From contig JBFLZI010000002.1 in NCBI GenBank assembly GCA_040756315.1, positions 1-58,398 of the forward strand: DNA of 58,398 nucleotides, written 5' to 3'. The notes under the pieces were generated by a model. It was given only the letters and a program-made list of their open reading frames with translations. It did not search any database and was not told where the DNA came from. This DNA is from Thermodesulfobacteriota bacterium. GTDB lineage: Bacteria > Desulfobacterota > Desulfobaccia > Desulfobaccales > 0-14-0-80-60-11. A program made the position numbers and the translations under genes. Within the stretch, counting starts at the first letter, position 1, and each line of letters starts with the position of its first letter. Shown here in pieces: positions 7,512-40,299 of the stretch.

Positions 7512-7523
7512 GGAGAGTTACAC

Positions 7524-11359: not shown

Positions 11360-11482
11360 GTTTGGGTCATCCTCAATATCATTGTTCGGGGCATCCCCCC
11401 AGGGTTACTACGTCTTTATGGTTTCGATTCAAAGAAACTTATCCAGCCCTTATGTGCTATGTGCATTGTCATTGTCCCTACT

Positions 11483-20322: not shown

Positions 20323-20346
20323 AAGTCATTCACTGAGGAAATATTT

Positions 20347-21654: not shown

Positions 21655-21716
21655 AATATTATCGCTTTTCCCCCAGGACCTCCAAGCACGCGACACCTAA
21701 AACCTGACACCTGCCC

Positions 21717-23274: not shown

Positions 23275-23276
23275 GC

Positions 23277-23732: not shown

Positions 23733-23743
23733 ATTTCCTTCCC

Positions 23744-23778
23744 AAAGTTCAAAGTTCAAGGTTCAAGGTTCGAAGTTA
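23744..23778 (-). repeat. tandem heptamer repeat in the hdrA-mvhD spacer
   Basis: Plus strand reads AAAGTTC AAAGTTC AAGGTTC AAGGTTC GAAGTTA. On the mRNA this is (GAACYUU)x4, ending 11 nt before the mvhD ATG. Confidence 0.7.
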
Positions 23779-23781
23779 ACC

Positions 23782-26865: not shown

Positions 26866-27191
26866 AAGAGGGTGGAAAAGAAATGACTATCAGATGATTT
26901 CTGATTCTTTTGTCAAAAGATTTCTTACAACCGGAGCTGCCCATCTTTGAGTAATATTGGGAAGGTAATCTCTGTTTTTTTAGCAAAATATATACCAGGG
27001 GCTAAATCTTACCCTTGACCAGAACCGTCCCTGGCCGGCCTTCTTATATCCATTTGGGAAACCAGGGTCCCGGAGGCGGTATGACCGAAGTTCTCTAAGG
27101 AACTTGGTGAGACTCTTAAAGGGTGCATTTTGCCCCCACCCCAACTCCGGATAATGGCGGGGTAGGTTAATCAGCCACGCAAAATCTAAGT

Positions 27192-27207
27192 TGGCATAAA
27201 AACTGCT
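27192..27207 (+). promoter_or_regulatory. candidate sigma-54 (-24/-12) promoter
   Basis: TGGCAT-AAAAA-CTGCTT. GG and GC have the canonical 10-nt separation. Lies about 65 nt upstream of the first ATG of the NifX-like/MinD operon, and a sigma-54 activator is encoded in the same array. Confidence 0.55.
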
Positions 27208-27273: not shown

Positions 27274-27858
27274 ATGATTCGCCTGAGAGGTGTAATGATC
27301 GCCATTCCCGTTTTGCGCTCCCGGGTGGCGCCGGTGCTGAATTGGTGCTCCCGGGTTCGGATATTTCCTGATGACCCCTCTTATCAAGGATCGGGGGAAG
27401 AGCTCGAGGTGTCCCATTTGGAGGCCGGTCAACGCCTGGATTTCCTCCGGGAGAAAGGTGTAAAAACTTTGATCTGCGGGGCTTTAAGCCCCGATCTGCT
27501 GCATTACGCCGGTGAACTGGGAATGACGGTCGTGTGCGGCGTCGCGGGGGAAGTTGAGGAAGTGCGGCAGTCATATTGGCAAAACCGGTTGGATCAGCCC
27601 CAATTCTGGCTGCCGGGCTGCAGAGGCCGGAGACGTTACCGTTCCGGCTGGAAAGGCGTCAAAGGTTGTCAGGACTTTGCTAAAGGCAGCAACCGGGGCC
27701 CCAAGCGCAACCGGAGCGCCCAGGTCGGTGAAGCAGGACCGTGGGGCCCCGCTAGTTGCTTATGTCCGGCCTGCGGGTTCAGACAACCTCATGAGAGAGG
27801 GATTCCCTGCCTGCAGGTTGCCTGTCCCCGCTGTGGTCAGGCCATGGTGCGGGAATAA
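27274..27858 (+). CDS. NifX/NifB-like (Nitro_FeMo-Co family) domain fused to a basic linker and a C-terminal double CPxCG zinc ribbon
   Basis: N-terminal part MIAIPVLRSRVAPVLNWC...KTLICGALSP..LHYAGELGMTVV. C-terminal part CLCPACGFRQPHERGIPCLQVACPRCGQAMVRE, which is paralogous to the ORF at 44897. Alternative ATG at 27295 with GAGAGG. Confidence 0.7.
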   Translation: MIRLRGVMIAIPVLRSRVAPVLNWCSRVRIFPDDPSYQGSGEELEVSHLEAGQRLDFLREKGVKTLICGALSPDLLHYAGELGMTVVCGVAGEVEEVRQSYWQNRLDQPQFWLPGCRGRRRYRSGWKGVKGCQDFAKGSNRGPKRNRSAQVGEAGPWGPASCLCPACGFRQPHERGIPCLQVACPRCGQAMVRE

Positions 27859-27879
27859 GGGCAGAAAACCGGCAAAAAG

Positions 27880-28719
27880 ATGATTATCAGCATTGCCAGC
27901 GGCAAGGGGGGCACCGGTAAGACTACCGTAGCCGTCAACCTGGCAGCGGCTCTGGGAGAACCGGTGCAACTCCTGGACTGCGATGTGGAAGAGCCTAACG
28001 CCCACCTCTTCCTCAAGCCTGCCATTACCCAGGAACTTAAAGTTTACCTGGAAGTGCCGGAGATTTCCCTGGATAAATGCACTTTCTGCGGCCTCTGCCA
28101 GGAACTTTGCCAGTTCAACGCCATCGCCATTCTCCCCCAAACCGCGCTCACCTTCCCGGAACTTTGCCACAGTTGCGGCGGCTGTTTTCTCATCTGTCCG
28201 GAGGAGGCCATTCTTAGCCGAAAACGGCTGGTGGGCCAGGTAGAGATAGGTTCCCGGAACGGCCTCCGCTTCGTCCATGGCCGGCTGCGGGTTGGGGAAG
28301 CCATGTCCCCGCCCCTCATCCGCCGGGTGAAACAAGAAATCCAGCCCCACGGCACGGTTATCATCGACGCGCCGCCGGGAACCTCCTGCCCGGTGGTGAC
28401 CACCCTCTGGGGCAGCGATTATGTCCTCCTGGTGACGGAACCCACCCCTTTCGGTCTCAATGATTTAGAACTGGCCGTGGGGGTGGCAAGGCATTTAGAC
28501 CTGCCTTGCGGCCTGGTGATCAACCGGGCCGATTTAGGGGACCGGCGGGTGCACGACTATGCCGTCCGGGAGAACCTGCCGATTCTGCTGGAAATCCCCT
28601 TTGACCGGGAGGCCGCGGAAATCTATGCCCAAGGCGGTTTACTGGTGGAAAAGCTCCCCCGCTGGCGCCGTCTCATGGAGGACTTGCTCATTAAGCTAGG
28701 GGGTTGGTTAAGCCATTAA
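27880..28719 (+). CDS. MinD/CooC-superfamily P-loop ATPase with inserted 2x[4Fe-4S] ferredoxin domain
   Basis: Deviant Walker A SGKGGTGKTT. Insert CTFCGLCQELCQFNAI / CHSCGGCFLICPEEAI. Confidence 0.85.
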   Translation: MIISIASGKGGTGKTTVAVNLAAALGEPVQLLDCDVEEPNAHLFLKPAITQELKVYLEVPEISLDKCTFCGLCQELCQFNAIAILPQTALTFPELCHSCGGCFLICPEEAILSRKRLVGQVEIGSRNGLRFVHGRLRVGEAMSPPLIRRVKQEIQPHGTVIIDAPPGTSCPVVTTLWGSDYVLLVTEPTPFGLNDLELAVGVARHLDLPCGLVINRADLGDRRVHDYAVRENLPILLEIPFDREAAEIYAQGGLLVEKLPRWRRLMEDLLIKLGGWLSH

Positions 28720-28886
28720 CCGCACATCAGGAAAGCGCCCACCAGGGGAGGGGGAGAAACAGCCCCAATTTTCTAGGCGAGCCAATTGTGATAAATTACC
28801 AGATCAAAAGCGTTTCCTGACCGGGTGAGTTCATCTCCGGCGATGCGGCTTTTACCGGTAAGGCGCCATTCAAAAAGGAGGCACCG

Positions 28887-29060
28887 ATGTCCAACCCCAA
28901 AATTTCCGAGATCAAGGGCAAACTGGCCAGCGACCCGAGCCAATTGAGCCGGCAGGAGTTGGAGTGGCTGGTGAAACGGGTGGAGGAGCTGGAAAAAGAA
29001 AACGATTGGCTTAAAAGAGAACTCTCTTATGCCGAACATCAGGGTGAAGTCAGTTTTTAA
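28887..29060 (+). CDS. small coiled-coil protein, 57 aa, absent from the ORF track
   Basis: ATG preceded by AAAAAGGAGG at a spacing of 6 nt. Translation is MSNPKISEIKGKLASDPSQLSRQELEWLVKRVEELEKENDWLKRELSYAEHQGEVSF. It fills the gap between two operon genes on the same strand. The 88-aa antisense ORF at 28773-29039 lacks these signals. Confidence 0.6.
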   Translation: MSNPKISEIKGKLASDPSQLSRQELEWLVKRVEELEKENDWLKRELSYAEHQGEVSF

Positions 29061-29089
29061 CCGAAATAGTCCGGTCCAGGGGGGGTCGC

Positions 29090-29575
29090 ATGGATGACAT
29101 TATCCTCCGGCCCATCGGCACCATCCAGACGCCCTTTCGCGAACCCCAGGGAACGCCGATACAACCGCCGGCAGCCAAAGGGGTGGCGGGGCTAGTCACC
29201 TTGTTTCCCGAGTACCGGGAAGGCCTCCAGGATCTAGATGGTTTTTCCCATCTTTATCTCATTTATCATTTCCACCTCTGCAAGGGTTTTTCCCTGAAGG
29301 TCAAGCCGTTTCTGGACGACCGGAAACGGGGGGTCTTTGCCACCCGGGCGCCGGCCCGGCCCAACTCCATCGGCGTCTCTTTAGTGCGTTTGGAGAAGAT
29401 CGAGGGAGACCGGCTGCACGTCCGGGACGTGGACATGGTGGATGGCACACCCCTTTTGGACATCAAGCCTTATGTCCCGGAATTCGATTCTCGTCTCCAG
29501 GCAAGGATCGGCTGGCTGGCGACCAATCTGGTTAAACTGCGGACGGCCCGGGATGACGGTAGATTTACGGCCTGA
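29090..29575 (+). CDS. TrmO/TsaA(YaeB)-family SAM-dependent methyltransferase-like protein
   Basis: 161 aa. IGTIQTPF...GTPIQP, DLDGFSHLYLIYHFH, RAPARPNSIGVSLVRL, GTPLLDIKPY. Confidence 0.8.
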   Translation: MDDIILRPIGTIQTPFREPQGTPIQPPAAKGVAGLVTLFPEYREGLQDLDGFSHLYLIYHFHLCKGFSLKVKPFLDDRKRGVFATRAPARPNSIGVSLVRLEKIEGDRLHVRDVDMVDGTPLLDIKPYVPEFDSRLQARIGWLATNLVKLRTARDDGRFTA

Positions 29576-29607
29576 ATTACTCCGGGGGCCTGAGATACGG
29601 GGGAAAG

Positions 29608-30498
29608 GTGTCGGATATTAGCGAACTGGTGGTATTAAGCGGCAAAGGCGGCACAGGTAAGACCAGCCTGGTGGGAGCCCTGGCGGCCCTGGCGCCGGAT
29701 AAAGTCCTGTGCGATGCCGACGTGGACGCCGCGGACCTGCACCTGTTGCTCCGGCCGGAGATCCGGCAACGCCATGATTTTTATGCCGGCCATAAGGCGG
29801 TGATTGCTGCCGACCGGTGCAGCCAATGCGGCGAGTGTCTCGATTGGTGCCGTTTCGGCGCCATCAGCGGGTCTTTCGCCATTAATCCTTTGCTCTGCGA
29901 AGGCTGCGGGGTCTGCTGGCATTTGTGCCCGGTTAAAGCCATCGATTTTCCCGTCAACCTCTGCGGCGAGTGGTTCATTTCCGATACCCGCTTCGGCCCC
30001 CTGGTGCATGCCCGGCTGGGTATCGCCGAAGAAAACTCCGGGAAACTGGTGGCTTTGGTCCGGCAGGAAGCCCGGCGTTTGGCAGAAGAGCAAGGTCTGG
30101 ACTGGATCCTTACCGACGGCCCCCCGGGCATCGGCTGTCCGGTAATCTCTTCTCTGGGCAACGCCAGCGCGGTGCTCGTCATTACCGAGCCCAGCGTTGC
30201 CGGTCTCCATGACCTGGAACGGGTGGCGGCGCTGGCCCAGCACTTTGTCCTGCCGGTCTCGGTCCTGGTGAACAAAGCCGACCTGCATTGGGAAACCGCC
30301 GAGGCGATCTCGCAATTTTGCCGGGAGAAAGGCTATACCTTCCTGGGGCACCTGCCTTTTGATCCTGATTTCACCCGGGCCCAGGTTGAAGGCCGGACGA
30401 TTATGGAATATAATAACCAGAAGTTGCACGTCCTTCTCCGGGAGGTCTGGGAACGATTAAAAAGCGAGCTGCCAAGACCCAGGCTCAAGATTTGCTGA
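29608..30498 (+). CDS. MinD/CooC-superfamily P-loop ATPase with inserted ferredoxin domain (second paralog)
   Basis: SGKGGTGKTS. Insert CSQCGECLDWCRFGAI / CEGCGVCWHLCPVKAI. GTG start. Confidence 0.85.
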   Translation: MSDISELVVLSGKGGTGKTSLVGALAALAPDKVLCDADVDAADLHLLLRPEIRQRHDFYAGHKAVIAADRCSQCGECLDWCRFGAISGSFAINPLLCEGCGVCWHLCPVKAIDFPVNLCGEWFISDTRFGPLVHARLGIAEENSGKLVALVRQEARRLAEEQGLDWILTDGPPGIGCPVISSLGNASAVLVITEPSVAGLHDLERVAALAQHFVLPVSVLVNKADLHWETAEAISQFCREKGYTFLGHLPFDPDFTRAQVEGRTIMEYNNQKLHVLLREVWERLKSELPRPRLKIC

Positions 30499-31868
30499 CC
30501 AAGCCCAACGCCGGCCCGGGGCTGCTCAAGACCGGAGCAGCTTCTCCCCTTACTCCCCATACGGAAATCATCCTGAACAGCATTGCCGACGGCGTTTTCA
30601 CCGTGGACCTGGATTGGCGGGTAACTTTTTTCAACCAGGCGGCCGAGGAGATTACCGGCGTTCCGGCCACAGAAGCCCTGGGACGGCCTTGCTGCGAAGT
30701 CTTCCGGGCCAACGTCTGTGAATCGGCCTGCGTCCTCAAGCACACCCTGGAGACGGGCAAACCGGTGGTGAACCGGGCCATCGCCATCCTCCGGGCCGAC
30801 GGCAAGGAAATCCCCATCAGCGTCAGCACGGCTCTTTTGAAAAATGAAAACGGAGCCGTCATCGGCGGGGTGGAGACCTTTCGGGATTTGAGCCTGGTGG
30901 AGGAGCTGCGCCGGGAAATCCAACGACAATACCGTCTGGGCGACATCATCTCCAAATCGCCCCTGATGCAAAAAATCTTCGGGCTCCTGCCGGAAATCGC
31001 CCGCTCCGACAGCACCGTTTTGATCGAAGGGGAGTCCGGCACCGGCAAGGAACTGGTGGCCCGGGCCTTGCATCACCTAAGCCGCCGGGCCAAAGGCCCC
31101 TTTGTGGCCGTCAATTGCGGCGCGCTCCCGGACACCCTGCTGGAGTCGGAGCTTTTCGGCCACACCGCCGGCGCGTTTACCGACGCCCGCCGTGACCGCT
31201 TGGGCCGCTTTGCCCTGGCGGAAAAAGGCACCCTCTTCCTGGATGAAATCGGGGACATTTCCCCGGCTCTCCAGGTGCGGCTGCTCCGGGTCCTGGAAGA
31301 GAAGGCCTACATGCCCTTGGGTTCCTCCAAGAGCCTGAAGGCCGATGTGCGCATCGTCACCGCCACCCATAGAGACCTGGGCAAGCTGGTAGAGGAAGGC
31401 GCCTTTCGCCGGGACCTTTACTATCGCATCAATGTGGTGAAGTTGACATTGCCTCGGCTGGCCGAACGTAAAGAAGATATCCCCCTGTTGGCCCAGCATT
31501 TCATCGAGCGGTTTAATCGCCTCAAAGAGAAAAAGCTGGTGGGGTTGAGCCACGCCGCCCTGTCCATTTTCATGCGCCACGACTGGCCCGGCAACGTCCG
31601 GGAACTGGAAAACGCCATCGAACACGCGTTCATTCTGTGCCCCTCGGGCCTTATCCAGCCCCAGCATTTGCCGGAGCACCTGCGACCGGAATATCAGCCC
31701 GGCCCGCTGCTCACCGGCTTGACGTTGGAGGAGATGGAGAAGCGGACCCTGTGGGAGGCTCTGGAGCGCCACCAGTGGCGCCGTATGGCTACGGCCCGGG
31801 AACTGGGCATCGACAAGAATACTCTGCGCCGCAAAATCAAACGCCACGGGCTTACGCCGCCGGAATAG
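30492..31868 (+). CDS. sigma-54-dependent transcriptional activator with N-terminal Cys-rich PAS domain (no receiver domain)
   Basis: AAA+ core GESGTGKE, the sigma-54 contact motif GAFTDA (GAFTGA-type), and a C-terminal Fis-type HTH (ELGIDKNTLRRKIKRHG). The PAS domain carries C-x8-C-x3-C. Confidence 0.92.
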   Translation: MLTKPNAGPGLLKTGAASPLTPHTEIILNSIADGVFTVDLDWRVTFFNQAAEEITGVPATEALGRPCCEVFRANVCESACVLKHTLETGKPVVNRAIAILRADGKEIPISVSTALLKNENGAVIGGVETFRDLSLVEELRREIQRQYRLGDIISKSPLMQKIFGLLPEIARSDSTVLIEGESGTGKELVARALHHLSRRAKGPFVAVNCGALPDTLLESELFGHTAGAFTDARRDRLGRFALAEKGTLFLDEIGDISPALQVRLLRVLEEKAYMPLGSSKSLKADVRIVTATHRDLGKLVEEGAFRRDLYYRINVVKLTLPRLAERKEDIPLLAQHFIERFNRLKEKKLVGLSHAALSIFMRHDWPGNVRELENAIEHAFILCPSGLIQPQHLPEHLRPEYQPGPLLTGLTLEEMEKRTLWEALERHQWRRMATARELGIDKNTLRRKIKRHGLTPPE

Positions 31869-31900
31869 GGTCCCGGAGAAACTCTTTTAATAACCGTTAA

Positions 31901-32338
31901 CTAATGCGGCTCACCGGGCTTGGTCTGCCAGAGAGGCAATCCCGCAGGGTTGCGCAGTCTCAGAATCCGGGAGCCTTTTTTCACTTCTCGGGCGACAATT
32001 ACCGGCCTTTGTCCCACCGCGGTCCTCGAGCCGGTTACCTCCAGGAGGTCTTGGGGAGCCAACTTAAAGCCCTGCTCCTGGATGAAGGCCAACGGTCCCA
32101 GGCAGACCAGGATGGTTTCCCGGGGAGTCTGCAGTTGGACGGCCAGACGGTCGGGGATTTCCTTCTTTGGAGCGGATACCGTCACTAAATCCACGGCCTG
32201 GCCCTGAAGCACTTCCACCGTTTGGGGAAGGTAGGCAGGACAAAAAGCCCAGTCCATTTCTCCTGAGTTAGCCGGCGGGGCGGAGAGGCAAGCCAAAAAG
32301 ATGAACCAACCGAGGCAACGCCAACCGGTTTTTCTCAT
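31901..32338 (-). CDS. hypothetical exported protein
   Basis: Signal peptide MRKTGWRCLGWFIFLACLSAPPANSG. ATG 32338 is preceded by AAAGGGGA. The track ORF extends to 32380. No recognisable family. Confidence 0.55.
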   Translation of the reverse strand: MRKTGWRCLGWFIFLACLSAPPANSGEMDWAFCPAYLPQTVEVLQGQAVDLVTVSAPKKEIPDRLAVQLQTPRETILVCLGPLAFIQEQGFKLAPQDLLEVTGSRTAVGQRPVIVAREVKKGSRILRLRNPAGLPLWQTKPGEPH

Positions 32339-32478
32339 CTGATTTTTCCCCTTTCCCCATCCAGGGCTGGACAGTTGCATGGATAATATTGTATCAGACC
32401 TGGCCGATTACTTCCGAATAATTTCATCTTCCGGCTACGCCGGGTGACCGGGATAAAAAATGATATCAGCAAAGATCG

Positions 32479-33225
32479 GTGGATGGCATGGGGCTATCTT
32501 TTGATGAGCAGGCGGAGGCCTATGACCGCTGGTATGAGACGCCCCTGGGGCGGTTGGTGGATACCGTGGAGAAACAGGCCGTCTTTGACCTGACGCCCCA
32601 GGTACAGGGTCGGCGCATCCTGGAGGTGGGCTGCGGCACCGGCAATTTTTCCCTGGAATTGGCCCACCGGGGGGCACAAGTGGTGGGGCTGGACTCCTCC
32701 GGTCCCATGCTGGCCAGGGCCCGGGCCAAGGCCGGGAGGCAGGACCGGGCCGTCGCCTGGGTCCGGGGCCGGGCCTCGCGTTTACCCTTTGGGGACGGTG
32801 GTTTTGACGGAGTAATGTGTATCCTGGCCCTGGACTTCATGTCGGACCGGGAGGCGGTCCTGAAGGAGATGGTCCGGGTGCTGGCGCCGGGAGGGTTTTT
32901 AGCGGTGGCCATCCTGAACCGCTACAGTCTTTGGACGCTGAAGCGGCTTATCCGGGCTTGGTTCAAGCCTTCTCTCTGGCGGGAGGTCCGTTTCCTCACC
33001 GCCAAAGAACTGGGGCGGTTGCTGACCGGGAGTCAGGAATTGGCGGAAATCCGCAGCCGTTGGGCCGTTTACTTCCCCCCCTGGGCCCACCGGCGACTGG
33101 TGCGCTATTATCCTTACCTGGAGAGCTTGGGAGACCGGCTGAATCTTGCCAGCGGGGCCTTCCTGGCGGCGGTGGCCAGAAAAAAAATCAACCTTCCCCA
33201 ACCTTTGGGGAGGTCTCTCGCCTAA
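32479..33225 (+). CDS. class I SAM-dependent methyltransferase
   Basis: Motif I ILEVGCGTGNFS. Acidic post-I residue in VVGLDSS. Motif II region FDGVMC. Confidence 0.85.
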   Translation: MDGMGLSFDEQAEAYDRWYETPLGRLVDTVEKQAVFDLTPQVQGRRILEVGCGTGNFSLELAHRGAQVVGLDSSGPMLARARAKAGRQDRAVAWVRGRASRLPFGDGGFDGVMCILALDFMSDREAVLKEMVRVLAPGGFLAVAILNRYSLWTLKRLIRAWFKPSLWREVRFLTAKELGRLLTGSQELAEIRSRWAVYFPPWAHRRLVRYYPYLESLGDRLNLASGAFLAAVARKKINLPQPLGRSLA

Positions 33226-33350
33226 AGAGCTGCCCCGAACCTTCCCCTAGAAACAATTTGCACCCAAAGCCCAAGGAATTTGGGCTCATATTGTTCCCAA
33301 CCCTCATCTCCCGGCCTTTGCCCAAGCCTCTGTCGCCGACTGGTCTCAAC

Positions 33351-33366
33351 TGGCATACTACTTGAT
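33351..33366 (+). promoter_or_regulatory. candidate sigma-54 promoter (weak -12 element)
   Basis: TGGCAT-ACTAC-TTGATG. Correct GG-to-12 spacing, but GA replaces GC at -12. It is embedded in a promoter module that is duplicated at 34797-34877. Confidence 0.4.
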
Positions 33367-33529
33367 GAACTAAAAATGAAAAGTTTTCCAGAAATCTCGG
33401 ACTCCTGGCAAAGCCTCAGGCCCGGTTCGGGGAAAGCGTCGTCGTTGAGGCCGTGCCGCATGGTTGGGGGCCTTGGTCAAAACGCGGGCAGAAACCATAA
33501 GGTTTTGCCAGGCAGTACAGGAGTTGGTC

Positions 33530-33793
33530 ATGCCCACCTATGAATACGAGTGCCGCGCCTGCGGTTACCAATTCGAAATGCCGCAAGGCATGCTGGACGC
33601 GCCTCTTAAGAAATGCCCGGAGTGTCAAGGGCCTGTCCGGCGCCTGGTCAGCGGCTGGCTCGGTTTCATCCTCAAAGGGCGGGACTCCGGCCGGGTTGCG
33701 CACCAGGGCCAGGCATGTTCCCGGGAACGGGGCAGCGGAACCTGCTGCGGTCGGGAAGAGCGTTGCGACCGGCCGCCATGCGGAGATAATTAA
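33530..33793 (+). CDS. FmdB-family zinc-ribbon protein with Cys-rich tail
   Basis: MPTYEYECRACGYQFE...KKCPECQGPVRR is the classic CxxC..CxxC FmdB signature. RBS CAGGAG. The track start at 33464 is an upstream extension. Confidence 0.8.
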   Translation: MPTYEYECRACGYQFEMPQGMLDAPLKKCPECQGPVRRLVSGWLGFILKGRDSGRVAHQGQACSRERGSGTCCGREERCDRPPCGDN

Positions 33794-34780
33794 ATGACCA
33801 CATCCGGCTTTCGCTACATCTATGGCCCGGTAAACTCGCGCCGTTTGGGTCGCTCCTTGGGAGTGGACCTCGTGCCTTTTAAGACCTGCACCTACGATTG
33901 CATCTACTGCCAGTTGGGGCATACCACCAATAAGACCTGCAGACGGCAAGAATATGTCCCCATTGCCGACATTCTCGGCGAATTGCAGCAGAAATTAGCC
34001 GAAGGGCCTCCTCTGGATTACATCACCCTGGGAGGCTCGGGGGAACCGACGCTGAATGCCCGCCTGGGTGAATTGCTAGGGCAGATAAAGGGGCTGACCC
34101 GCGTCCCTCTGGCCGTTCTCACCAATGGTTCCCTTTTGTGGCGGCGAGTGGTTCAGGATGCCCTGATGGAGGCCGACCTCGTCCTGCCTTCCCTCGACGC
34201 CGGGGATGAACAGTTATTTCGGTATGTAAATCGCCCCCACCGGGACATTACCTTTGACCACATGGTTTATGGCCTGGCGGAATTCACCAGGCGTTTCCCC
34301 AAGTCAGTGTGGCTGGAAGTGTTGCTGTTGTCGGGGGTGACGGGCATAGTGACGGAAGTGGAGAAGATCGCGGCCCTGGCCAGAAGCATCCGGCCGGAAC
34401 GGGTGCAACTGAACACGGTATCCCGCCCCCCCTCCGAAGAGTTCGCCTGTCCCGTCCCCCGGGATCAGTTGGAAGCCTTCGCCAAGCTGTTTGAAGGCAA
34501 GGCGGAAGTGATCAGTGCCGCTAATGGGGAGGTAACCAGGTCGCCGCAGGCCCATCCGGCAACGGATGCTGACATCCTGGCTTTGTTAAGCCGGCGCCCC
34601 TGCACGGTTCAGGGGGTTTCAGCCAGTTTAGGCCTCCACGTCGGGGAAGCGGCCAAACGGCTGCAAGCTTTGGCCGATCAAGGCTCAGTGATAGCCGTGC
34701 GCAATAATGGGGGAATTTTTTATGAGCCGTTGCGGACCTCCGCTCCGGAAGTTATCGTGGGGGACAAAATGAACCCTTAG
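33794..34780 (+). CDS. radical SAM protein with C-terminal winged-helix-like domain
   Basis: Canonical CTYDCIYC (Cx3Cx2C) and GGSGEPT. The ATG directly abuts the TAA stop of the upstream zinc-ribbon gene. Confidence 0.85.
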   Translation: MTTSGFRYIYGPVNSRRLGRSLGVDLVPFKTCTYDCIYCQLGHTTNKTCRRQEYVPIADILGELQQKLAEGPPLDYITLGGSGEPTLNARLGELLGQIKGLTRVPLAVLTNGSLLWRRVVQDALMEADLVLPSLDAGDEQLFRYVNRPHRDITFDHMVYGLAEFTRRFPKSVWLEVLLLSGVTGIVTEVEKIAALARSIRPERVQLNTVSRPPSEEFACPVPRDQLEAFAKLFEGKAEVISAANGEVTRSPQAHPATDADILALLSRRPCTVQGVSASLGLHVGEAAKRLQALADQGSVIAVRNNGGIFYEPLRTSAPEVIVGDKMNP

Positions 34781-34861
34781 AAGATCGATCCAGGTTTATA
34801 TTGTTCCCAGCACCTCTCCCGGCCTTTGCCAAAGCCCTGGTTTCTGCTGATCCCCCCCCCT

Positions 34862-34877
34862 TGGCACAGTATTTGAT
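34862..34877 (+). promoter_or_regulatory. candidate sigma-54 promoter (weak -12 element)
   Basis: TGGCAC-AGTAT-TTGATC, about 45 nt upstream of ATG 34921. Same architecture as the candidate at 33351. Confidence 0.45.
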
Positions 34878-34920
34878 CAGATAGAAGATAAAACGTCCGG
34901 CAACCAAGGAGTGATAAGAT

Positions 34921-36189
34921 ATGAGCACCTGTCAGAGCCGCCAGTGCGGATCAGGCGGCGGCAAAACCCATCACCATGAAACCGAAGACGATTCCCGTCT
35001 TCAGGAACAACTCCGGCACATTCGCCACAAACTCTTAGTTATGAGCGGCAAGGGCGGCGTGGGCAAGACCAGCGTGGCCACCTACCTGGCCTTGGGCCTG
35101 GCCCAAAGAGGATATCAGGTGGGACTCTTGGACGTGGACCTGCACGGTCCGGACATCCCCCGGATGCTGGGCATCAGCGGCCGGTTCGAAATGGATGCCG
35201 AAGGGCATCTGCTGCCCCACCGTTACAGCGACCATCTCCAGGTGGTCTCCATCGAATGCCTGCTGCATGACCGGGACGAAGCGGTGATCTGGCGGGGTCC
35301 CCTCAAGCACAGCTACATCCAGCAGAGCCTGTCCCAGGTGAATTGGGGCGAGTTGGACTTCCTGGTCATCGACTCGCCTCCCGGCACCGGGGATGAGCCG
35401 CTGAGCGTGGCCCAGACCATCACCGGGGTTCAGGCCGTCGTGGTCACCACCCCTCAGGAGATCTCCCTGGCCGACGTACGCAAGGCCATCAATTTCTGCC
35501 GGAAAGTGGAGATGCCCATCCTGGGCCTGGTGGAGAACATGAGCGGCCTTATTTGCCCCCATTGCGGCAAAGAGATTCCCTTGTTCAGCCAGGGAGGCGG
35601 GCAGAAGACCGCGGAGTTGACGGCCGTGCCCCTCTTGGCCAGTCTTCCCTTTGATCTCAGGGTGGTGCAAGGCGGCGATGCGGGACGTCCCTTGCTGGAG
35701 TCCCAGGATGGGAGCCCTTTCATTCTTGCTTTGAGGCGTCTGCTGGATGAAGTGGAAAAGCATCTGAGTGGACCACAGGTAAAAATTCCCGAACCGACTG
35801 CAGAAATTAGAAAACCGGAGGCAATGTCAACTATGGCGAAGGCGGGAGATTATACCTTCAAAGCCGCGGTGCCCCTGGCGGGTGGGGTGCTGTGCAACCA
35901 TTTCGGCCATTGTGAGCAGTTTGCGGTGCTGCACGTGGCTGACGGCAAGATCAGCGCCACGGAAATGCATGTGCCGCCGCCCCATGAGCCCGGGGTTCTG
36001 CCCCGGTGGCTGGGAGATTTAGGCGTAAACCTCATCATCGCCGGAGGTATGGGGCAAAGGGCCCTGGGGCTGTTCGCCGAGCAGGGCATCCAGGTGATCA
36101 CCGGCGCCCCGAATCTGGAGCCTGAGGCTCTGGTGCAGAGCTATCTGGCCGGAAGCTTGACGACCGGACCCAATATCTGTGATCACTAA
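34921..36189 (+). CDS. Mrp/NBP35(ApbC)-type Fe-S cluster carrier ATPase fused to a C-terminal NifX-like domain
   Basis: MSGKGGVGKTS and CPHCG (the Mrp CxxC motif). The C-terminal part has NHFGHCEQFAVL...LIIAGGMGQRALGLFAEQGIQV, typical of Nitro_FeMo-Co. Confidence 0.88.
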   Translation: MSTCQSRQCGSGGGKTHHHETEDDSRLQEQLRHIRHKLLVMSGKGGVGKTSVATYLALGLAQRGYQVGLLDVDLHGPDIPRMLGISGRFEMDAEGHLLPHRYSDHLQVVSIECLLHDRDEAVIWRGPLKHSYIQQSLSQVNWGELDFLVIDSPPGTGDEPLSVAQTITGVQAVVVTTPQEISLADVRKAINFCRKVEMPILGLVENMSGLICPHCGKEIPLFSQGGGQKTAELTAVPLLASLPFDLRVVQGGDAGRPLLESQDGSPFILALRRLLDEVEKHLSGPQVKIPEPTAEIRKPEAMSTMAKAGDYTFKAAVPLAGGVLCNHFGHCEQFAVLHVADGKISATEMHVPPPHEPGVLPRWLGDLGVNLIIAGGMGQRALGLFAEQGIQVITGAPNLEPEALVQSYLAGSLTTGPNICDH

Positions 36190-36402
36190 GGCTATACCCA
36201 TCAACCCAATGATATTCACGGTGGTCCCATAGGGCTTCTCCCTGGCGGGAGGTTGAGGGTTTGTTTTTTTCCCTGGGCATGGAAAACCTCCCTCTTCATG
36301 ACCGAACTCCCGCCAGGGAGAATTTTGGCGGTAAACCTTCCTCAAAGCTGCTTTTAGGGGATTTGGGCAAGATCTTCTTATGAAGACTTAAAGGAGAGCG
36401 CG

Positions 36403-36765
36403 GTGAAGATTGCCATAAGCGCCAACGGACCTGGTCTGGAGGCCCAGGTGGACCCCCGCTTCGGGCGGGCGGCCTACTTTCTCCTGGTGGATCCGGAAAC
36501 CCTGGAATTCGAGGTAGTCCCCAATCTGCCGAACCTCCAGGCGGCCCAGGGTGCCGGCATCCAGGCGGCCACCCTGGTGGCCCGCCATCGGCCGGCCGCG
36601 GTCCTCACGGGCCACTGCGGGCCGAAGGCTTTTTACACCCTGGAGGCCGCGGGCATCCCGGTGATCGTGGGTGTGGAAGGGTCGGTGCGGGAAGCGGTGG
36701 AGAACTACCAAACCGGAAAATTCCGTCCTGCCGGGGGGCCCAACGTCGCCAGCCATTGGGGCTGA
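36403..36765 (+). CDS. stand-alone NifX/NifB-like (Nitro_FeMo-Co family) cluster-binding protein, ORP-like size
   Basis: 120 aa. MKIAISANG..VDPRFGRAAYFLLVD...AVLTGHCGPKAF..LEAAGIPV. GTG start with AAGGAGA. Confidence 0.85.
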   Translation: MKIAISANGPGLEAQVDPRFGRAAYFLLVDPETLEFEVVPNLPNLQAAQGAGIQAATLVARHRPAAVLTGHCGPKAFYTLEAAGIPVIVGVEGSVREAVENYQTGKFRPAGGPNVASHWG

Positions 36766-36883
36766 TCTGAAGGGAAAGGGGCCTTCTTGAAGTTCCATTA
36801 AAAAGCCTTACCTTTTGAACAAAGACTCAAAAAACGGATAGCGACTCCCAAGGAAACTATCCTCAAAAAGGGAGGTAAGAGAC

Positions 36884-37135
36884 ATGGTGCCCCCGGAAAA
36901 GGAAATGACCATGGAATGCGCCCTGTGCGGCTATAGCGCCTCAGGGAAGTTTGTGGGGGATATCTGTCCCCAGTGCAACCTGACCTACTGGCGTTGCAGC
37001 AATTGCCGCTACACCCTCACCGCGGCCCAGCCCCCGGAAGTCTGTCCCAGTTGTCAGCAGAAATGCGATTTCCTCAACATCACCTGCTACACCCCGGAAT
37101 GCGGCGGCCCCGGGCATATTGACCCCAAGCTCTAG
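36884..37135 (+). CDS. Cys-rich multi-zinc-ribbon/rubredoxin-like small protein
   Basis: 83 aa with four CxxC pairs (CALCG, CPQC, CSNC, CPSC) plus extra Cys residues. RBS GGGAGG. Confidence 0.65.
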   Translation: MVPPEKEMTMECALCGYSASGKFVGDICPQCNLTYWRCSNCRYTLTAAQPPEVCPSCQQKCDFLNITCYTPECGGPGHIDPKL

Positions 37136-37203: not shown

Positions 37204-37845
37204 ATGAAGCTCACCATCGTTTATGACAATGAGGTGGATCAAGCCGGCCTGGAGGCCGATTGGGGGTTTGCCTGCCTGGTGGAGGCGGACGGCCGGCGGT
37301 TGCTCTTTGACACCGGGGCCAGAGGGGCGCTGTTGGTGCACAACCTGGAGAAGCTCCATCTGGCTCCGGGGCAGATCCCGGAAATTTTCATCTCCCACGA
37401 TCATTGGGACCACCTGGGGGGCCTGGAGGAAATTCTCCGGCTCAACCCGCAAGCCACGGTTTTCCTCCCCAAGTCCTGCTGCGAGACTTTTGCGGCCCGG
37501 CAGGTGGTCAGGGTCCAGGGGGCCTGCGGCCTCTCCCGGATTTTCTTTTCCACCGGGGAACTGCGCAACGTGGAGCAATCCCTGGTGGTCAAGACGAACG
37601 GCGGCCTGGTAGTAATTTGCGGCTGTTCTCACCCCGGAGTGGGACCTATCCTGGCAGCCGCCTCTCAGTTCGGACGAGTCTCGGCTCTGGTGGGCGGCCT
37701 GCACGGTTTCCGGGAATTCGAGCAGCTCGCTGACCTGGCCCTGGTCTGCCCCTGCCATTGCACCAGGCACAAAGAGGAAATTATGGCGCTCTTTCCGAAG
37801 ACCGCGGTGCGTGGCGGGGCCGGCAAAGTACTGGAGATTCACTAG
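37204..37845 (+). CDS. MBL-fold metallo-hydrolase (short COG1237-like form)
   Basis: FDTGARG, and the metal motif [10 protein letters not shown]. Confidence 0.8.
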
Positions 37846-38089: not shown

Positions 38090-38683
38090 ATGGGAGCGAA
38101 AGTCGGCAAACCGGCCCCGGACTTTGAGGCCGCGGCCTTTATCAATGGTGGTTTCAAAAACATCAAGCTCTCCGATTATAAAGGAAAATGGGTAGTGCTG
38201 TGCTTTTATCCGGGTGATTTCACCTTTGTCTGACCCACGGAACTGGCGGCAGTTGCCGCCAGATATAAAGAGTTTCAGGACTTGGGGGTAGAATTCCTGT
38301 CCATCAGCACCGACAGCCGCTTCAGTCATAAGATTTGGCAGGAAGAAGAGCTAAGCAAAATGGTGCCCGGCGGGATTCCCTTCCCCATGTTATCTGACCC
38401 CATGGGACTCATCGGGCAGGTGTACGGCGTCTTTGATGAGGAAGGCGGGGTGGATATCCGGGGCCGGTTTATCATTGATCCGGATGGCGTCATTCAAGCC
38501 GCGGAAACCTTGAGTCCACCGGTGGGCCGCAATCCTGCCGAGTTGCTCCGGCAGATCAAGGCTTATCAGCATGTCCGGGCCACCGGGGAAGTCTGCCCTT
38601 CAGGTTGGCAGCCGGGAAAATCTACTTTGAAGCCCGGTCCCGCCCTGGTAGGGAAAGTCTATCAGTGCTGGCAGCCGGAATAG
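38090..38683 (+). CDS. 2-Cys peroxiredoxin (AhpC/Prx family) with selenocysteine (TGA 38231-38233) at the peroxidatic position
   Basis: Two same-frame track ORFs join through one TGA. The joined sequence [16 protein letters not shown] matches the Prx motif FYPxDFTFVCPTE. Resolving-Cys region EVCPSGW. RBS GGGAGG 9 nt before the ATG. A hairpin lies downstream of the TGA. Confidence 0.85.
38243..38262 (+). promoter_or_regulatory. candidate bacterial SECIS hairpin (Prx)
   Basis: CTGGCGGC-AGTT-GCCGCCAG. Perfect 8-bp stem with GU in the loop. Starts 10 nt after the TGA. Confidence 0.65.
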
Positions 38684-38761: not shown

Positions 38762-39022
38762 ATGAAAGGCAAGCACGAACATAAGCATTTGCACTCCCAT
38801 GAACACACGCACGTCCACGGTCATGAGCACCGGCATGGAGACGAAGTCCACCTGCATGAGCACGCCCATACGCACACCCACGAGCATTTGCACGAGCACT
38901 CCCACGAGCATAGCCATGCCCAAGACTCCCACGTGCACGACCATGAGCACTCCGGGGAGCATGGTCCTCATGACCATGAGCATCCGGCCCACGACGCGGA
39001 GATGCACGAACATTCGCATTGA
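38762..39022 (+). CDS. histidine-rich metal-binding protein
   Basis: 86 aa, of which 35 are His, mostly as alternating HxH. RBS AAGGAGA. Lies upstream of a ZIP transporter gene. Confidence 0.75.
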   Translation: MKGKHEHKHLHSHEHTHVHGHEHRHGDEVHLHEHAHTHTHEHLHEHSHEHSHAQDSHVHDHEHSGEHGPHDHEHPAHDAEMHEHSH

Positions 39023-39135: not shown

Positions 39136-39450
39136 ATGCCGAGATATTATGGTCCACGTCAGTATGCCAGAGGTCCTGGCTGGGGACGGGGCTTCGGGTT
39201 CGGGAGGGGATACGGCGGCGGTTGGTGTTGGTGGCCGCGGCGATCCTGGTGTCTGGGCTGGGGAGGGTGGGGGCCGCCCCCCTTTTGGGAGGCTGGCCCA
39301 TATGGACCCGGGCCTTATTGGGAAGAGCCGCCCTATGAATCTCCTCAAGAGGAACTGGCCGACCTTAAAGAGCAGGAAGCATCTCTCCGGAAGGAATTAG
39401 CAGCCGTTCAGACACGCCTGGCCGAACTGGAGAAAGAGGCCTCGGGTTAG
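39136..39450 (+). CDS. DUF5320-like protein: Gly/Arg/Trp-rich N-terminal region plus C-terminal coiled coil
   Basis: MPRYYGPRQYARGPGWGRGFGFGRGYGGG... followed by ELADLKEQEASLRKELAAVQTRLAELEKE. Paralog of the ORF at 45200. Confidence 0.7.
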   Translation: MPRYYGPRQYARGPGWGRGFGFGRGYGGGWCWWPRRSWCLGWGGWGPPPFWEAGPYGPGPYWEEPPYESPQEELADLKEQEASLRKELAAVQTRLAELEKEASG

Positions 39451-40266: not shown

Positions 40267-40299
40267 ATTCGCTTGGGGAAAAATTCCCTCGATTTGGCT

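What the first reader, a model, noticed from the sequence alone, without database searches (positions are those of the whole stretch)
27274..37135. Expanded orange-protein (ORP)-like metallocluster system: NifX-like carriers, ferredoxin-inserted MinD ATPases, Mrp-NifX fusion and cognate sigma-54 activator, plus extra enzymes
From memory of published work on Desulfovibrio vulgaris orp genes (not verifiable here): the anaerobe-specific ORP complex comprises a small NifX-like orange protein, further NifX-like proteins, two MinD-like ATPases with Fe-S domains and an Mrp/NifX fusion. Its genes are expressed from sigma-54 promoters under a PAS-containing activator, and its physiological role is still unclear.

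This window has every one of those parts: 27274, 27880, 29608, 30492, 34921 and 36403. They lie in one co-directional array that is interleaved with genes not part of that description:
- a 57-aa coiled-coil micro-ORF
- a TrmO/TsaA-like protein
- a SAM methyltransferase
- an FmdB zinc ribbon coupled to a radical SAM enzyme
- a four-CxxC zinc-ribbon protein
- an MBL hydrolase

This looks like a larger, uncharacterised variant of a poorly understood metal-cluster handling system.
Basis: partly seen in the sequence, partly recalled or inferred. Interest (0 to 1): 0.75.

Follow-up and report, generated by a model that had tools for sequence, protein, structure and literature searches.

The report
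Orange-protein gene cluster with radical-SAM partners
This is a complete copy of the poorly understood "orange protein" metal-cluster system of anaerobes. It also carries a radical-SAM enzyme, a cysteine-rich zinc-ribbon partner and methyltransferases, and these travel with the system in more than ten bacterial phyla, which suggests it builds or modifies a metal-sulfur cofactor.

Summary
The window encodes a full ORP gene set:
- an orange-protein homologue (PDB 2WFB, E 6e-26);
- an MrpORP above NCBI's equivalog cut-off;
- two MinD ATPases with ferredoxin inserts;
- a NifX-like protein with a cationic tail and a zinc ribbon;
- an OrpR-type activator that keeps the published Fe-S cysteine triad and the GAFTDA motif.

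Three sigma-54-type promoters each lie about 70 bp downstream of an OrpR-like palindrome. They precede the first operon, the FmdB/radical-SAM pair and mrpORP.

I fetched 80 species through the radical-SAM enzyme. Of the 41 loci of at least 15 kb, 36 carry MinD-ferredoxin genes, 33 Mrp, 32 OrpR-like activators and 20 TrmO-like genes. The usual order is OrpR, NifX-like, ORP, TrmO, MinD, FmdB, rSAM, (methyltransferase), MinD, Mrp, (selenocysteine peroxiredoxin). Homologues of the enzyme also occur fused to NifX-like or methyltransferase domains.

The link is one-sided. Four close relatives fetched through MrpORP lack the rSAM, FmdB and TrmO genes within 10 kb.

The 57-aa ORF, the rubredoxin-like protein, the MBL, DUF5320, ZIP and CDF-NifX are neighbours confined to this lineage.

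Function remains inferred: probably SAM-dependent maturation of a NifX-carried metal-sulfur species. This is a new variant of a known system.

The parts
27121..27137 (+). Upstream activator site 1, GGGTGCATTTTGCCCCC, an OrpR-type palindrome
   Evidence: It has 2 mismatches to the published D. vulgaris OrpR site GGGCGYRTTTTGCGCCC. It is conserved in L005 and L006 within otherwise diverged intergenic DNA. It lies 71 bp upstream of P1.
27192..27207 (+). P1, sigma-54-type promoter TGGCATAAAAACTGCT
   Evidence: Equivalent promoters precede the orthologous first gene in L005, L006 and L085-L088 and in 36 cases in the wider set.
27274..27858 (+). NifX-like domain + cationic Gly/Arg linker (pI 11.6) + C-terminal zinc ribbon (194 aa)
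   Evidence: In other genomes the ribbon module is a separate small protein that begins MPRGDGTGP.
27880..28719 (+). MinD-type ATPase A with a 2x[4Fe-4S] ferredoxin insert (Orp3/Orp4-like)
   Evidence: Orthologues share 50-76% identity in related loci.
28887..29060 (+). 57-aa coiled-coil ORF
   Evidence: No family match. It is conserved at the same position in L006 (67%) and L086 (63%) only.
29090..29575 (+). TrmO/TsaA N-domain-only SAM-binding protein (161 aa)
   Evidence: It is present in 20 of 41 long rSAM-centred loci and absent from the four closest ORP clusters.
29608..30498 (+). MinD-type ATPase B with a 2x[4Fe-4S] ferredoxin insert
30492..31868 (+). OrpR-type sigma-54 activator (PAS-AAA+-HTH)
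   Evidence: The sequence CCEVFRANVCESAC has the spacing of C52/E54/C61/C65, and the protein carries GAFTDA. A sigma-70-like TTGAAG-17-TATAAT lies at 30386-30414.
32479..33225 (+). Class I SAM methyltransferase (248 aa)
   Evidence: It follows orpR in L005, L087 and L088. A homologue lies directly downstream of the rSAM in 12 loci. It is fused to the rSAM in P0241 and P0248.
33249..33298 (+). Upstream activator sites 2a and 2b (AGAAACAATTTGCACCC and GGGCTCATATTGTTCCC)
   Evidence: Site 2b lies 69 bp upstream of P2.
33351..33366 (+). P2, sigma-54-type promoter TGGCATACTACTTGAT (the -12 element reads GA, not GC)
   Evidence: The counterpart in L006 is TGGCATGCTATTTGAT and in L005 CGGCATACTATTTGCT. 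P2 shares a roughly 45-bp block with P3.
33530..33793 (+). FmdB-family zinc ribbon with a conserved five-cysteine tail (87 aa)
   Evidence: The tail motif CS.E..G.TCCG...RC....CG is conserved in the 42 aligned sequences. The gene abuts the rSAM gene in 41 loci.
33794..34780 (+). Radical SAM enzyme (CX3CX2C) with a C-terminal winged helix (328 aa), an uncharacterised family
34760..34808 (+). Upstream activator sites 3a and 3b (GGGGACAAAATGAACCC and AGGTTTATATTGTTCCC)
   Evidence: Site 3b lies 70 bp upstream of P3. The same pair of sites occurs in L086 and L088.
34862..34877 (+). P3, sigma-54-type promoter TGGCACAGTATTTGAT
   Evidence: It is identical in L006. L085-L088 carry equivalents, with a canonical TTGCT in L085.
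34921..36189 (+). MrpORP (Orp9): Mrp/NBP35 ATPase + NifX-like domain
   Evidence: It scores 517 bits against NF041136, cut-off 450. The motifs GKGGVGKT, CPHC, CNHFGHCE, VPPPHEPGVLP and CDH match those published.
36403..36765 (+). Orange protein (Orp8) homologue, 120 aa
36884..37135 (+). 83-aa protein with two rubredoxin-like CxxC...CxxC units
   Evidence: It is conserved in L006, L086 and partly in L085.
37204..37845 (+). MBL-fold hydrolase (213 aa)
   Evidence: Orthologues occur in L006, L086 and L088.
38090..38683 (+). Peroxiredoxin with an in-frame TGA (38231-38233) at the peroxidatic cysteine: a probable selenoprotein
38762..39022 (+). His-rich 86-aa protein
   Evidence: It is conserved in L006, L086 and L088.
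39136..39450 (+). DUF5320 protein: a Gly/Trp/Arg/Tyr/Pro-rich N-terminal region and a coiled-coil C-terminus
   Evidence: The composition resembles the tail of IssA.
39529..40266 (+). ZIP-family metal transporter
40273..41439 (+). Second radical SAM enzyme with a SPASM domain
   Evidence: It is conserved in L006 and L086.
42796..44055 (+). Cation-diffusion-facilitator transporter fused to a NifX-like domain
   Evidence: The same fusion lies near ORP genes in L001, L004, L086 and L088.

Best explanation
Shown: the locus is an ORP (orange protein) gene set. It has the sequence marks of control by a redox-sensing OrpR-type activator and three sigma-54-type promoters:
- P1 precedes NifX-like, MinD-A, the 57-aa ORF, TrmO and MinD-B.
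- P2 precedes FmdB and the rSAM.
- P3 precedes MrpORP, ORP and the genes that follow.

Strongly inferred: the FmdB/radical-SAM pair, the TrmO-like protein and the class I methyltransferase are functional partners of the ORP proteins, not passengers.

Inferred mechanism:
1. At low redox potential OrpR switches the genes on.
2. MrpORP loads [4Fe-4S] clusters onto the two MinD-ferredoxin ATPases.
3. The NifX-like proteins (ORP, the tailed NifX-like protein and the Mrp C-domain) hold a labile anionic metal-sulfur species.
4. The radical-SAM enzyme chemically matures that species, or its protein ligand. It works with its five-cysteine FmdB partner, and the methyltransferases assist it.

The logic parallels NifB, NifX and NifH in nitrogenase cofactor assembly. 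The Sec-peroxiredoxin, the rubredoxin-like protein and the metal transporters would serve as protection and supply.
For: ORP identity:
- MrpORP scores above the equivalog cut-off and carries all the published motifs.
- The 120-aa protein is closest to the D. gigas orange protein.
- The activator has OrpR's C-x-E-x6-C-x3-C and GAFTDA.

Regulon:
- The only three exact matches in 58 kb to GGGNNCAWWWTGNNCCC are at 27121, 33282 and 34760.
- The only three exact matches to TGGCAY-N6-TGMT are at 27192, 33351 and 34862. The proximal sites (27121, 33282, 34792) lie 69-71 bp upstream of them.
- The same layout recurs at P1 and P3 in four relatives that were not used to derive the motifs, and in L005 and L006.

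Partnership:
- In the 41 rSAM-centred loci of at least 15 kb from many phyla, 36 have MinD-Fer4, 35 the NifX-like/ribbon gene, 33 Mrp, 32 an OrpR-like activator, 32 ORP-like, 30 FmdB and 20 TrmO.
- The rSAM lies between the two MinD genes in 33 of 80 loci, and FmdB abuts it in 41.
- 40 of 42 neighbouring activators keep the OrpR cysteine motif.
- Sigma-54 promoters precede the first operon gene in 36 cases. All genes together gave 55 hits, against 7-19 in each of ten shuffles.
- Fusions exist: NifX+rSAM (P0255, P0270), rSAM+NifX (P0038) and rSAM+methyltransferase (P0241, P0248).
- In this lineage the rSAM/FmdB and TrmO genes sit at positions different from the common order. This argues for selection on linkage rather than inherited synteny.

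Literature:
- MrpORP transfers Fe-S clusters to Orp3 and Orp4.
- OrpR is active only at low redox potential.
- NifX-family domains bind anionic Fe-S species.
Against: - No experiment links any of these proteins here.
- The rSAM has only the three canonical cysteines invariant, so it has no NifB-like auxiliary cluster sites.
- Its predicted fold matches TYW1, PFL-AE, NifB and viperin equally well.
- P2 and P3 read GA in place of the near-invariant GC at -12.
- The motifs used for the exact-match counts were refined on these same sites.
- The studied D. vulgaris system is described without an rSAM.
- Four close relatives lack the rSAM, FmdB and TrmO genes within 10 kb of their ORP genes, so the ORP core can stand without them nearby.
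- The 80 loci are those most similar to the query and are not an unbiased sample.
Confidence: 0.55

Rival explanations
1. Iron-sulfur storage and mobilisation. The NifX-like proteins with cationic tails, and DUF5320, hold inorganic Fe-S polymer (thioferrate-like) as IssA does. The CDF-NifX and ZIP transporters supply metal. Mrp and the MinD-ferredoxin ATPases mobilise clusters. The SAM enzymes play only a minor or regulatory part, and no new cofactor is made.
For: - IssA is a NifX-family domain plus a cationic Gly/aromatic tail.
- The tail of the 194-aa protein has pI 11.6. The first 70 residues of DUF5320 hold G18, W9, R7, Y7 and P13, close to the IssA tail composition.
- CDF-NifX fusions recur near ORP genes.
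- MrpORP is an Fe-S carrier.
Against: - It does not explain why a radical-SAM enzyme sits between the two MinD genes across phyla and fuses to NifX-like and methyltransferase domains.
- The orange protein of D. gigas carries a Mo/Cu cluster, not thioferrate.
Confidence: 0.2
2. Protein or peptide modification. The radical-SAM enzyme uses its C-terminal winged helix to recognise the FmdB-like protein and modifies its cysteine-rich tail, as RiPP maturases do. The ORP genes would then be co-regulated but biochemically separate.
For: - The stop codon of FmdB is immediately followed by the rSAM start, and the two genes abut in 41 loci.
- The tail motif is strictly conserved.
- The model has a winged helix at residues 258-312.
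Against: - The rSAM has no SPASM or twitch domain.
- No protease or exporter lies in the common operon.
- FmdB is conserved along its whole length across phyla, unlike RiPP cores.
- The fusions found are to NifX-like and methyltransferase domains, and none of the extended homologues examined gave an FmdB match.
Confidence: 0.15
3. The extra genes are unrelated passengers that happen to lie among ORP genes.
For: - Close relatives have the ORP backbone without the rSAM, FmdB and TrmO genes.
- The 57-aa ORF, the rubredoxin-like protein, the His-rich protein and ZIP are confined to this lineage.
Against: - The genes co-occur across many phyla at 50-90% of long loci.
- They are embedded inside the operon.
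- FmdB/rSAM carries an OrpR-type promoter of its own.
- Domain fusions tie the rSAM to NifX-like and methyltransferase domains.
Confidence: 0.07
4. tRNA modification, as the source labels suggest ('wyosine synthetase' for the rSAM, TrmO for the 161-aa protein).
For: - JGI names the rSAM family wyosine synthetase.
- The 161-aa protein passes the TIGR00104 cut-off.
Against: - The TYW1 model scores 20.8 bits against a cut-off of 318.
- The TrmO-like protein matches only the TrmO_N family and aligns only to the N-terminal part of full-length TrmO.
- The genomic context is entirely metal-cluster proteins.
Confidence: 0.03

Closest known systems
ORP (orange protein) system of Desulfovibrio vulgaris Hildenborough: orp3-4-5, orpR, orp7-8-9
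   Same: It shares an orange-protein homologue, MrpORP with all published motifs and two MinD-like ATPases with two ferredoxin motifs each. It also shares an OrpR-type PAS activator with the Fe-S cysteine triad and GAFTDA, and sigma-54 promoters preceded by a GGG..CA...TG..CCC palindrome.
   Different: - The operons are co-directional, not divergent.
- A third OrpR-type promoter drives an FmdB/radical-SAM pair.
- A TrmO-like gene and a 57-aa ORF lie between the MinD genes, and a methyltransferase follows orpR.
- The NifX-like first gene carries a cationic tail and a zinc ribbon.
- A long downstream train adds Sec-Prx, DUF5320, ZIP, rSAM/SPASM and CDF-NifX.
- The D. vulgaris sequences themselves were not available for direct alignment.
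Nitrogenase cofactor assembly (NifB, NifX/NafY, NifH)
   Same: Both combine a radical-SAM enzyme, NifX-family carrier domains and P-loop ATPases of the MinD/NifH/Mrp class. In some homologues the rSAM is fused to a NifX-like domain, as in NifB. NifB structures are among the top fold matches.
   Different: - No NifB model matched.
- The rSAM has no conserved auxiliary-cluster ligands.
- No NifEN or NifDK genes are present.
- The fold match is no better than to TYW1, PFL-AE or viperin.
IssA thioferrate storage protein of Pyrococcus furiosus
   Same: Both have a NifX-family globular domain followed by a cationic, glycine- and aromatic-rich tail.
   Different: Here the tail ends in a zinc ribbon, and the Gly/Trp-rich segment also exists as a separate DUF5320 protein. 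No metal data exist for these proteins.
Mrp/NBP35/ApbC iron-sulfur carriers
   Same: The 422-aa protein has the deviant Walker A GKGGVGKT and the bridging CxxC motif.
   Different: It carries the extra NifX-like domain that defines the MrpORP subtype.

Membership tests
ORP system (D. vulgaris orp/OrpR regulon) | Orange protein (Orp8): a single NifX-family domain of about 120 aa | tested here: met
   The protein at 36403-36765 is closest to D. gigas ORP 2WFB, E 6e-26 over residues 2-114. Pfam Nitro_FeMo-Co E 1e-20.
ORP system (D. vulgaris orp/OrpR regulon) | MrpORP (Orp9): Mrp/NBP35 domain + NifX-like domain with the motifs CXXC, CXHFGHCE, TPPPHXPGXXP and CDH | tested here: met
   NF041136 scores 517 bits, cut-off 450. 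CPHC, CNHFGHCE, VPPPHEPGVLP and the terminal CDH are in the translation and match.
ORP system (D. vulgaris orp/OrpR regulon) | Two paralogous MinD-like ATPases, each with two [4Fe-4S] ferredoxin motifs (Orp3/Orp4) | tested here: met
   CbiA/ParA plus Fer4 matches. Each has two CxxCxxCxxxC motifs. No direct alignment to DVU2103/2104 was possible.
ORP system (D. vulgaris orp/OrpR regulon) | Further NifX-like protein(s) (Orp5, Orp7) | tested here: inconclusive
   The 194-aa protein matches Nitro_FeMo-Co at E 2.5e-3, below the cut-off, and has only weak PDB hits. The D. vulgaris sequences were not at hand.
ORP system (D. vulgaris orp/OrpR regulon) | OrpR: PAS domain with C52/C61/C65 and an acidic residue at position 54, a sigma-54 AAA+ domain with GAFTDA, and an HTH | tested here: met
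   CCEVFRANVCESAC and GAFTDA are present. The same motif occurs in 40 of 42 neighbouring activators elsewhere.
ORP system (D. vulgaris orp/OrpR regulon) | Sigma-54 promoters preceded by the OrpR palindrome upstream of the orp operons | tested here: met
   Met at sequence level only. P2 and P3 have a non-canonical -12 element. No transcript data.
ORP system (D. vulgaris orp/OrpR regulon) | Two divergent operons flanking orpR | tested here: not met
   All ORP genes are on the + strand. The same co-directional layout occurs in L085-L088.
ORP system (D. vulgaris orp/OrpR regulon) | A physical complex of Orp3/4/5/8/9, and a Mo/Cu cluster on ORP | not testable with these tools
   This needs pull-downs and metal analysis.
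NifB | Radical-SAM CX3CX2C motif plus conserved ligands for two further clusters, and a match to the NifB family model | tested here: not met
   Only C32, C36 and C39 are invariant. NifB is not among the NCBIfam matches. The fold match is generic.
TYW1 (the source label 'wyosine synthetase') | A match to the TYW1 family model | tested here: not met
   TIGR03972 scores 20.8 bits, cut-off 318.
TrmO/TsaA | TrmO N-terminal SAM-binding barrel | tested here: met
   TIGR00104 scores 135 bits, cut-off 93. Pfam TrmO_N E 6e-42.
TrmO/TsaA | The C-terminal part present in full-length TrmO | tested here: not met
   The protein is 161 aa with only a TrmO_N match. It aligns to residues 12-152 of the 237-aa 7BTU protein and resembles the 147-aa AF_0241.
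FmdB-family zinc ribbon (TIGR02605) | N-terminal CxxC...CxxC ribbon | tested here: met
   It scores 65.9 bits, cut-off 31.3. The five-cysteine tail is specific to this subfamily.
IssA-type Fe-S storage proteins | NifX-family domain plus a cationic glycine-rich tail, and thioferrate binding | tested here: inconclusive
   The tail composition fits. Binding is not testable here.
RiPP radical-SAM maturase with precursor (e.g. SCIFF type) | An auxiliary-cluster (SPASM/twitch) domain and a short variable core peptide | tested here: not met
   The 328-aa enzyme has no SPASM match. FmdB is conserved along its length across phyla.

The most novel reading that the evidence does not exclude
The ORP system is the core of a previously unrecognised radical-SAM-dependent pathway that assembles or modifies a complex metal-sulfur cofactor outside nitrogenase. 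It would be built on the same logic as NifB/NifX/NifH: a radical-SAM enzyme that in some lineages is fused to a NifX domain, methyl donors, NifX-type carriers and Fe-S-bearing P-loop ATPases. It would be widespread in anaerobes of more than ten phyla and switched on only at low redox potential by OrpR.
Probability: 0.25. Interest if true: 0.9.

Novelty: new variant of a known kind. Interest (0 to 1): 0.65.

Why it matters
The papers I could read, dated 2014 to 2021, still call the role of the ORP complex unclear. They concern Desulfovibrio, whose cluster is described without the SAM enzymes.

The common form of the operon elsewhere carries three kinds of enzyme genes: a radical-SAM enzyme, a five-cysteine partner and methyltransferases. 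This points away from a purely structural or cell-division role and towards cofactor chemistry. It also names concrete proteins and cultured organisms in which to test that: Syntrophus buswellii and Malonomonas rubra.

None of my searches of the held literature found this link.

Tried and rejected
- The published OrpR consensus alone gave one match in the window against 1.6 expected by chance. It is convincing only through its position and its conservation.
- A joint scan for the window's palindrome plus promoter across the 80 loci found pairs only in L005 and L006. Other lineages use related but different palindromes of the GTCGCA-N4-TGCGAC type.
- My first sigma-54 scan had a faulty pattern and returned nothing. 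It was corrected.
- A profile search of solved structures found no relative of the rSAM beyond generic radical-SAM and winged-helix hits.
- Foldseek could not discriminate among TYW1, PFL-AE, NifB and viperin.
- The terminator scan was no richer than shuffles.
- No extra sigma-54 promoter was evident ahead of the rubredoxin-like, MBL or Prx genes.
- The 57-aa ORF shows only a 17-residue coiled-coil resemblance to DUF5320.
- The 2011 paper that defines the ORP complex is not held.
- The 'orange protein' + 'radical SAM' literature hits were irrelevant.

Full report
WHAT IS THERE

- The 422-aa protein at 34921-36189 scores 517 bits against NCBIfam's MrpORP equivalog model (cut-off 450). It contains the motifs published for MrpORP: GKGGVGKT, CPHC, CNHFGHCE, VPPPHEPGVLP and a terminal CDH.
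- The 120-aa protein at 36403-36765 is most similar among solved structures to the Desulfovibrio gigas orange protein, 2WFB (E 6e-26, aligned end to end).
- The two MinD-type ATPases (27880-28719, 29608-30498) each carry two CxxCxxCxxxC ferredoxin motifs.
- The activator (30492-31868) has PAS, sigma-54 AAA+ and HTH_8 domains. Its sequence CCEVFRANVCESAC reproduces the spacing of the C52/E54/C61/C65 residues shown to be needed for redox sensing by OrpR. It also has OrpR's unusual GAFTDA motif.
- The first gene (27274-27858) is a weak NifX-like domain followed by a strongly cationic linker (pI 11.6) and a zinc ribbon.

Two corrections to the observation:
- A 159-aa ORF of unknown status lies on the minus strand at 31901-32380.
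- Thematically related genes continue to about 44055. They include a ZIP transporter, a second radical-SAM/SPASM enzyme and a cation-efflux transporter fused to a NifX-like domain.

REGULATION

- The published OrpR site GGGCGYRTTTTGCGCCC matches once in the window, at 27121 (2 mismatches). It lies 71 bp upstream of a sigma-54-type promoter, TGGCATAAAAACTGCT (27192), directly ahead of the first gene.
- Two more sigma-54-type promoters precede the FmdB/radical-SAM pair (33351) and mrpORP (34862). Each has two palindromes of the form GGGnnCAwwwTGnnCCC, the proximal one 69-70 bp upstream.
- In the whole 58-kb window the only three exact matches to that palindrome, and the only three exact matches to TGGCAY-N6-TGMT, are at these three places.
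- Those patterns were refined on these same sites, so I checked them on sequences not used to derive them. In four relatives fetched through MrpORP the same promoter arrangement precedes both the first gene and mrpORP, and a palindrome accompanies all but one of these eight promoters (P1 of L088). The same holds in L005 and L006, where the palindrome and promoter stand out as conserved islands in diverged intergenic DNA.
- P2 and P3 share a block of about 45 bp. P2 therefore looks like a copy of the mrpORP promoter.
- Caveat: P2 and P3 read TTGAT at -12 rather than TTGC. Desulfoglaeba has the canonical form at the equivalent promoter.
- A sigma-70-like promoter lies just upstream of orpR.

ARE THE EXTRA GENES REALLY PART OF IT?

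The radical-SAM enzyme belongs to a large, highly conserved and uncharacterised family.
- It has thousands of homologues above 60% identity across phyla and 1115 clusters at E 1e-30 or better.
- It reaches no NCBIfam cut-off and has no solved relative.

Using an alignment of it, I fetched the 80 best-matching species out of at least 584. They span Syntrophales, other Thermodesulfobacteriota, NC10, Acidobacteriota, Planctomycetota, Lentisphaerae, Verrucomicrobiota, Anaerolineales, Gaiellales, Eisenbacteria, Elusimicrobia and Firmicutes.

I then searched these loci with all the window proteins. In the 41 loci of at least 15 kb the counts are:

| Window protein | Loci with a match (of 41) |
|---|---|
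| MinD-ferredoxin | 36 |
| NifX-like/ribbon protein | 35 |
| Mrp | 33 |
| OrpR-like activator | 32 |
| ORP-like | 32 |
| FmdB | 30 |
| TrmO-like | 20 |
| Methyltransferase | 14 |
| Peroxiredoxin | 13 |
| MBL | 12 |
| rSAM/SPASM | 4 |
| DUF5320 | 3 |
| ZIP | 2 |
| 57-aa ORF, rubredoxin-like protein, His-rich protein | 1 each |

The recurrent order is OrpR, NifX-like, Gly/Arg-rich ribbon protein, ORP, TrmO, MinD-A, FmdB, rSAM, (methyltransferase), MinD-B, Mrp, (peroxiredoxin).

Further support:
- FmdB abuts the rSAM gene in 41 loci, and the rSAM lies between the two MinD genes in 33 of 80.
- 40 of 42 adjacent activators keep the OrpR cysteine motif.
- A sigma-54 promoter precedes the first operon gene in 36 cases. 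All genes together gave 55 hits, against 7-19 in each of ten shuffles.
- Independent Pfam-annotated contexts agree.
- Homologues of the rSAM occur fused to a NifX-like domain at either end (P0038, P0255, P0270) and to a class I methyltransferase (P0241, P0248).

The link is one-sided. Four close relatives fetched through MrpORP are Desulfoglaeba alkanexedens and three MAGs. They share the backbone NifX-like, MinD, (57-aa ORF), MinD, OrpR, (methyltransferase), Mrp, ORP, and in some the downstream train. None has the rSAM, FmdB or TrmO genes within 10 kb.

In the window these genes are therefore insertions into a lineage backbone, at positions different from the common order. I read that as selection for linkage rather than inherited synteny.

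WHAT THE PARTS SUGGEST

- The FmdB partners share a strictly conserved tail, CS.E..G.TCCG...RC....CG. Its five cysteines are enough to hold a cluster or to be a substrate.
- The rSAM has only the three canonical cysteines invariant and a C-terminal winged helix. Its predicted fold (pLDDT 82.5) matches TYW1, PFL-AE, NifB and viperin about equally. It is therefore not a NifB and not a TYW1.
- The TrmO-like protein passes the TrmO model but is N-domain only, like AF_0241.
- The cationic tail of the first gene resembles the tail of IssA, and so does the Gly/Trp/Arg/Tyr/Pro-rich DUF5320 protein. [quoted passage not shown]

MOST LIKELY MECHANISM

The first step rests on shown sequence features and published D. 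vulgaris work. The rest is inferred.
1. At low redox potential OrpR activates the three promoters.
2. MrpORP supplies [4Fe-4S] clusters to the MinD-ferredoxin ATPases, as shown in vitro for the Desulfovibrio proteins.
3. NifX-family proteins hold a labile anionic metal-sulfur species.
4. The FmdB/rSAM pair, with the methyltransferases, matures that species or its ligand.

Rivals are Fe-S storage without new chemistry, modification of the FmdB tail as an end in itself, passenger genes and tRNA modification. They are weighed in their own sections.

COMPARISON AND NOVELTY

The locus is a member of the ORP kind by every sequence-level criterion I could test, except the divergent operon layout. What the accessible literature does not describe is the association with the radical-SAM/FmdB pair, the TrmO-like protein and the methyltransferase, nor the NifX-rSAM fusions. 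The founding 2011 paper could not be read, so prior mention there cannot be excluded.

SOURCE ORGANISM

This is an inference. The closest named relatives are Desulfobacca/Desulfobaccales and Syntrophobacterales MAGs. The upstream HdrA-MvhD-MetV-MetF genes fit such an organism.

Noticed in passing
window 38090-38683 (TGA at 38231-38233); also L006, L007, L020, L023, L038, L044, L048, L056, L057, L060, L077, L082: The peroxiredoxin has an in-frame TGA exactly at the peroxidatic cysteine (FTFV*PTE). An 8-bp GC-rich hairpin follows 9 nt later. All 12 operon-linked homologues have TGA at the same place. In most of these homologues a 7-bp hairpin with a GGUC loop follows, and its stem shows compensatory changes between loci. 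This is a selenocysteine peroxiredoxin. The type is already known, but here it is a recurrent last gene of the ORP/rSAM operon.
   Followed up: yes
window 31901-32380 (- strand): A 159-aa ORF with a signal-peptide-like N-terminus lies between orpR and the methyltransferase gene. It has no family match and no clear homologue in the related loci. In relatives the methyltransferase follows orpR directly. Whether it is a real gene is open.
   Followed up: partly
window 18304-26865 (- strand); 26982-26997 (-): A divergently transcribed operon encodes HdrA-like (1027 aa), MvhD/FlpD, MetV-like, MTHFR and further HdrA-like/FlpD proteins. A sigma-54-like match, TGGTATATATTTTGCT, faces it. L005 has a similar match ahead of its HdrA-like gene.
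   Followed up: partly
window 39136-39450; also 27274-27858, residues 110-160: The first 70 residues of DUF5320 hold G18, W9, R7, Y7 and P13. This is close to the composition reported for the thioferrate-binding tail of IssA. The first ORP gene has a pI 11.6 linker of similar character.
   Followed up: partly
window 42796-44055; L001, L004, L086, L088: A cation-diffusion-facilitator transporter fused to a C-terminal NifX-like domain recurs a few kb from ORP genes in several genomes. In the window it lies close to a ZIP transporter and a His-rich 86-aa protein (38762-39022).
   Followed up: partly
L005 (= L001) 7421-7564 and 11073-11368: In this Syntrophobacterales MAG only fragments of a MinD-ferredoxin gene and of mrpORP remain at the orthologous positions, and FmdB is missing. 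The cluster seems to be decaying there, while the promoters, orpR, the methyltransferase and the rSAM persist.
   Followed up: no
L003/L077 10999-12351: In an NC10 genome the Mrp-type ATPase next to the rSAM is fused to a NifU_N scaffold domain instead of a NifX-like domain.
   Followed up: no
protein P0262 (704 aa): One homologue of the radical-SAM enzyme carries a C-terminal HD phosphohydrolase domain. Desulfoglaeba has an HDOD/HD protein just downstream of its ORP genes (L085 12448-13293).
   Followed up: no
window 41535-42710: An ODP-family (oxygen-binding di-iron type) metallo-beta-lactamase-fold protein lies between the rSAM/SPASM gene and the CDF-NifX gene.
   Followed up: no
L087 16272-16628, L088 16861-17205, L003 15150-15596: Small CGGC-domain proteins and PAS histidine kinases recur a few kb downstream of ORP clusters in several genomes.
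   Followed up: no
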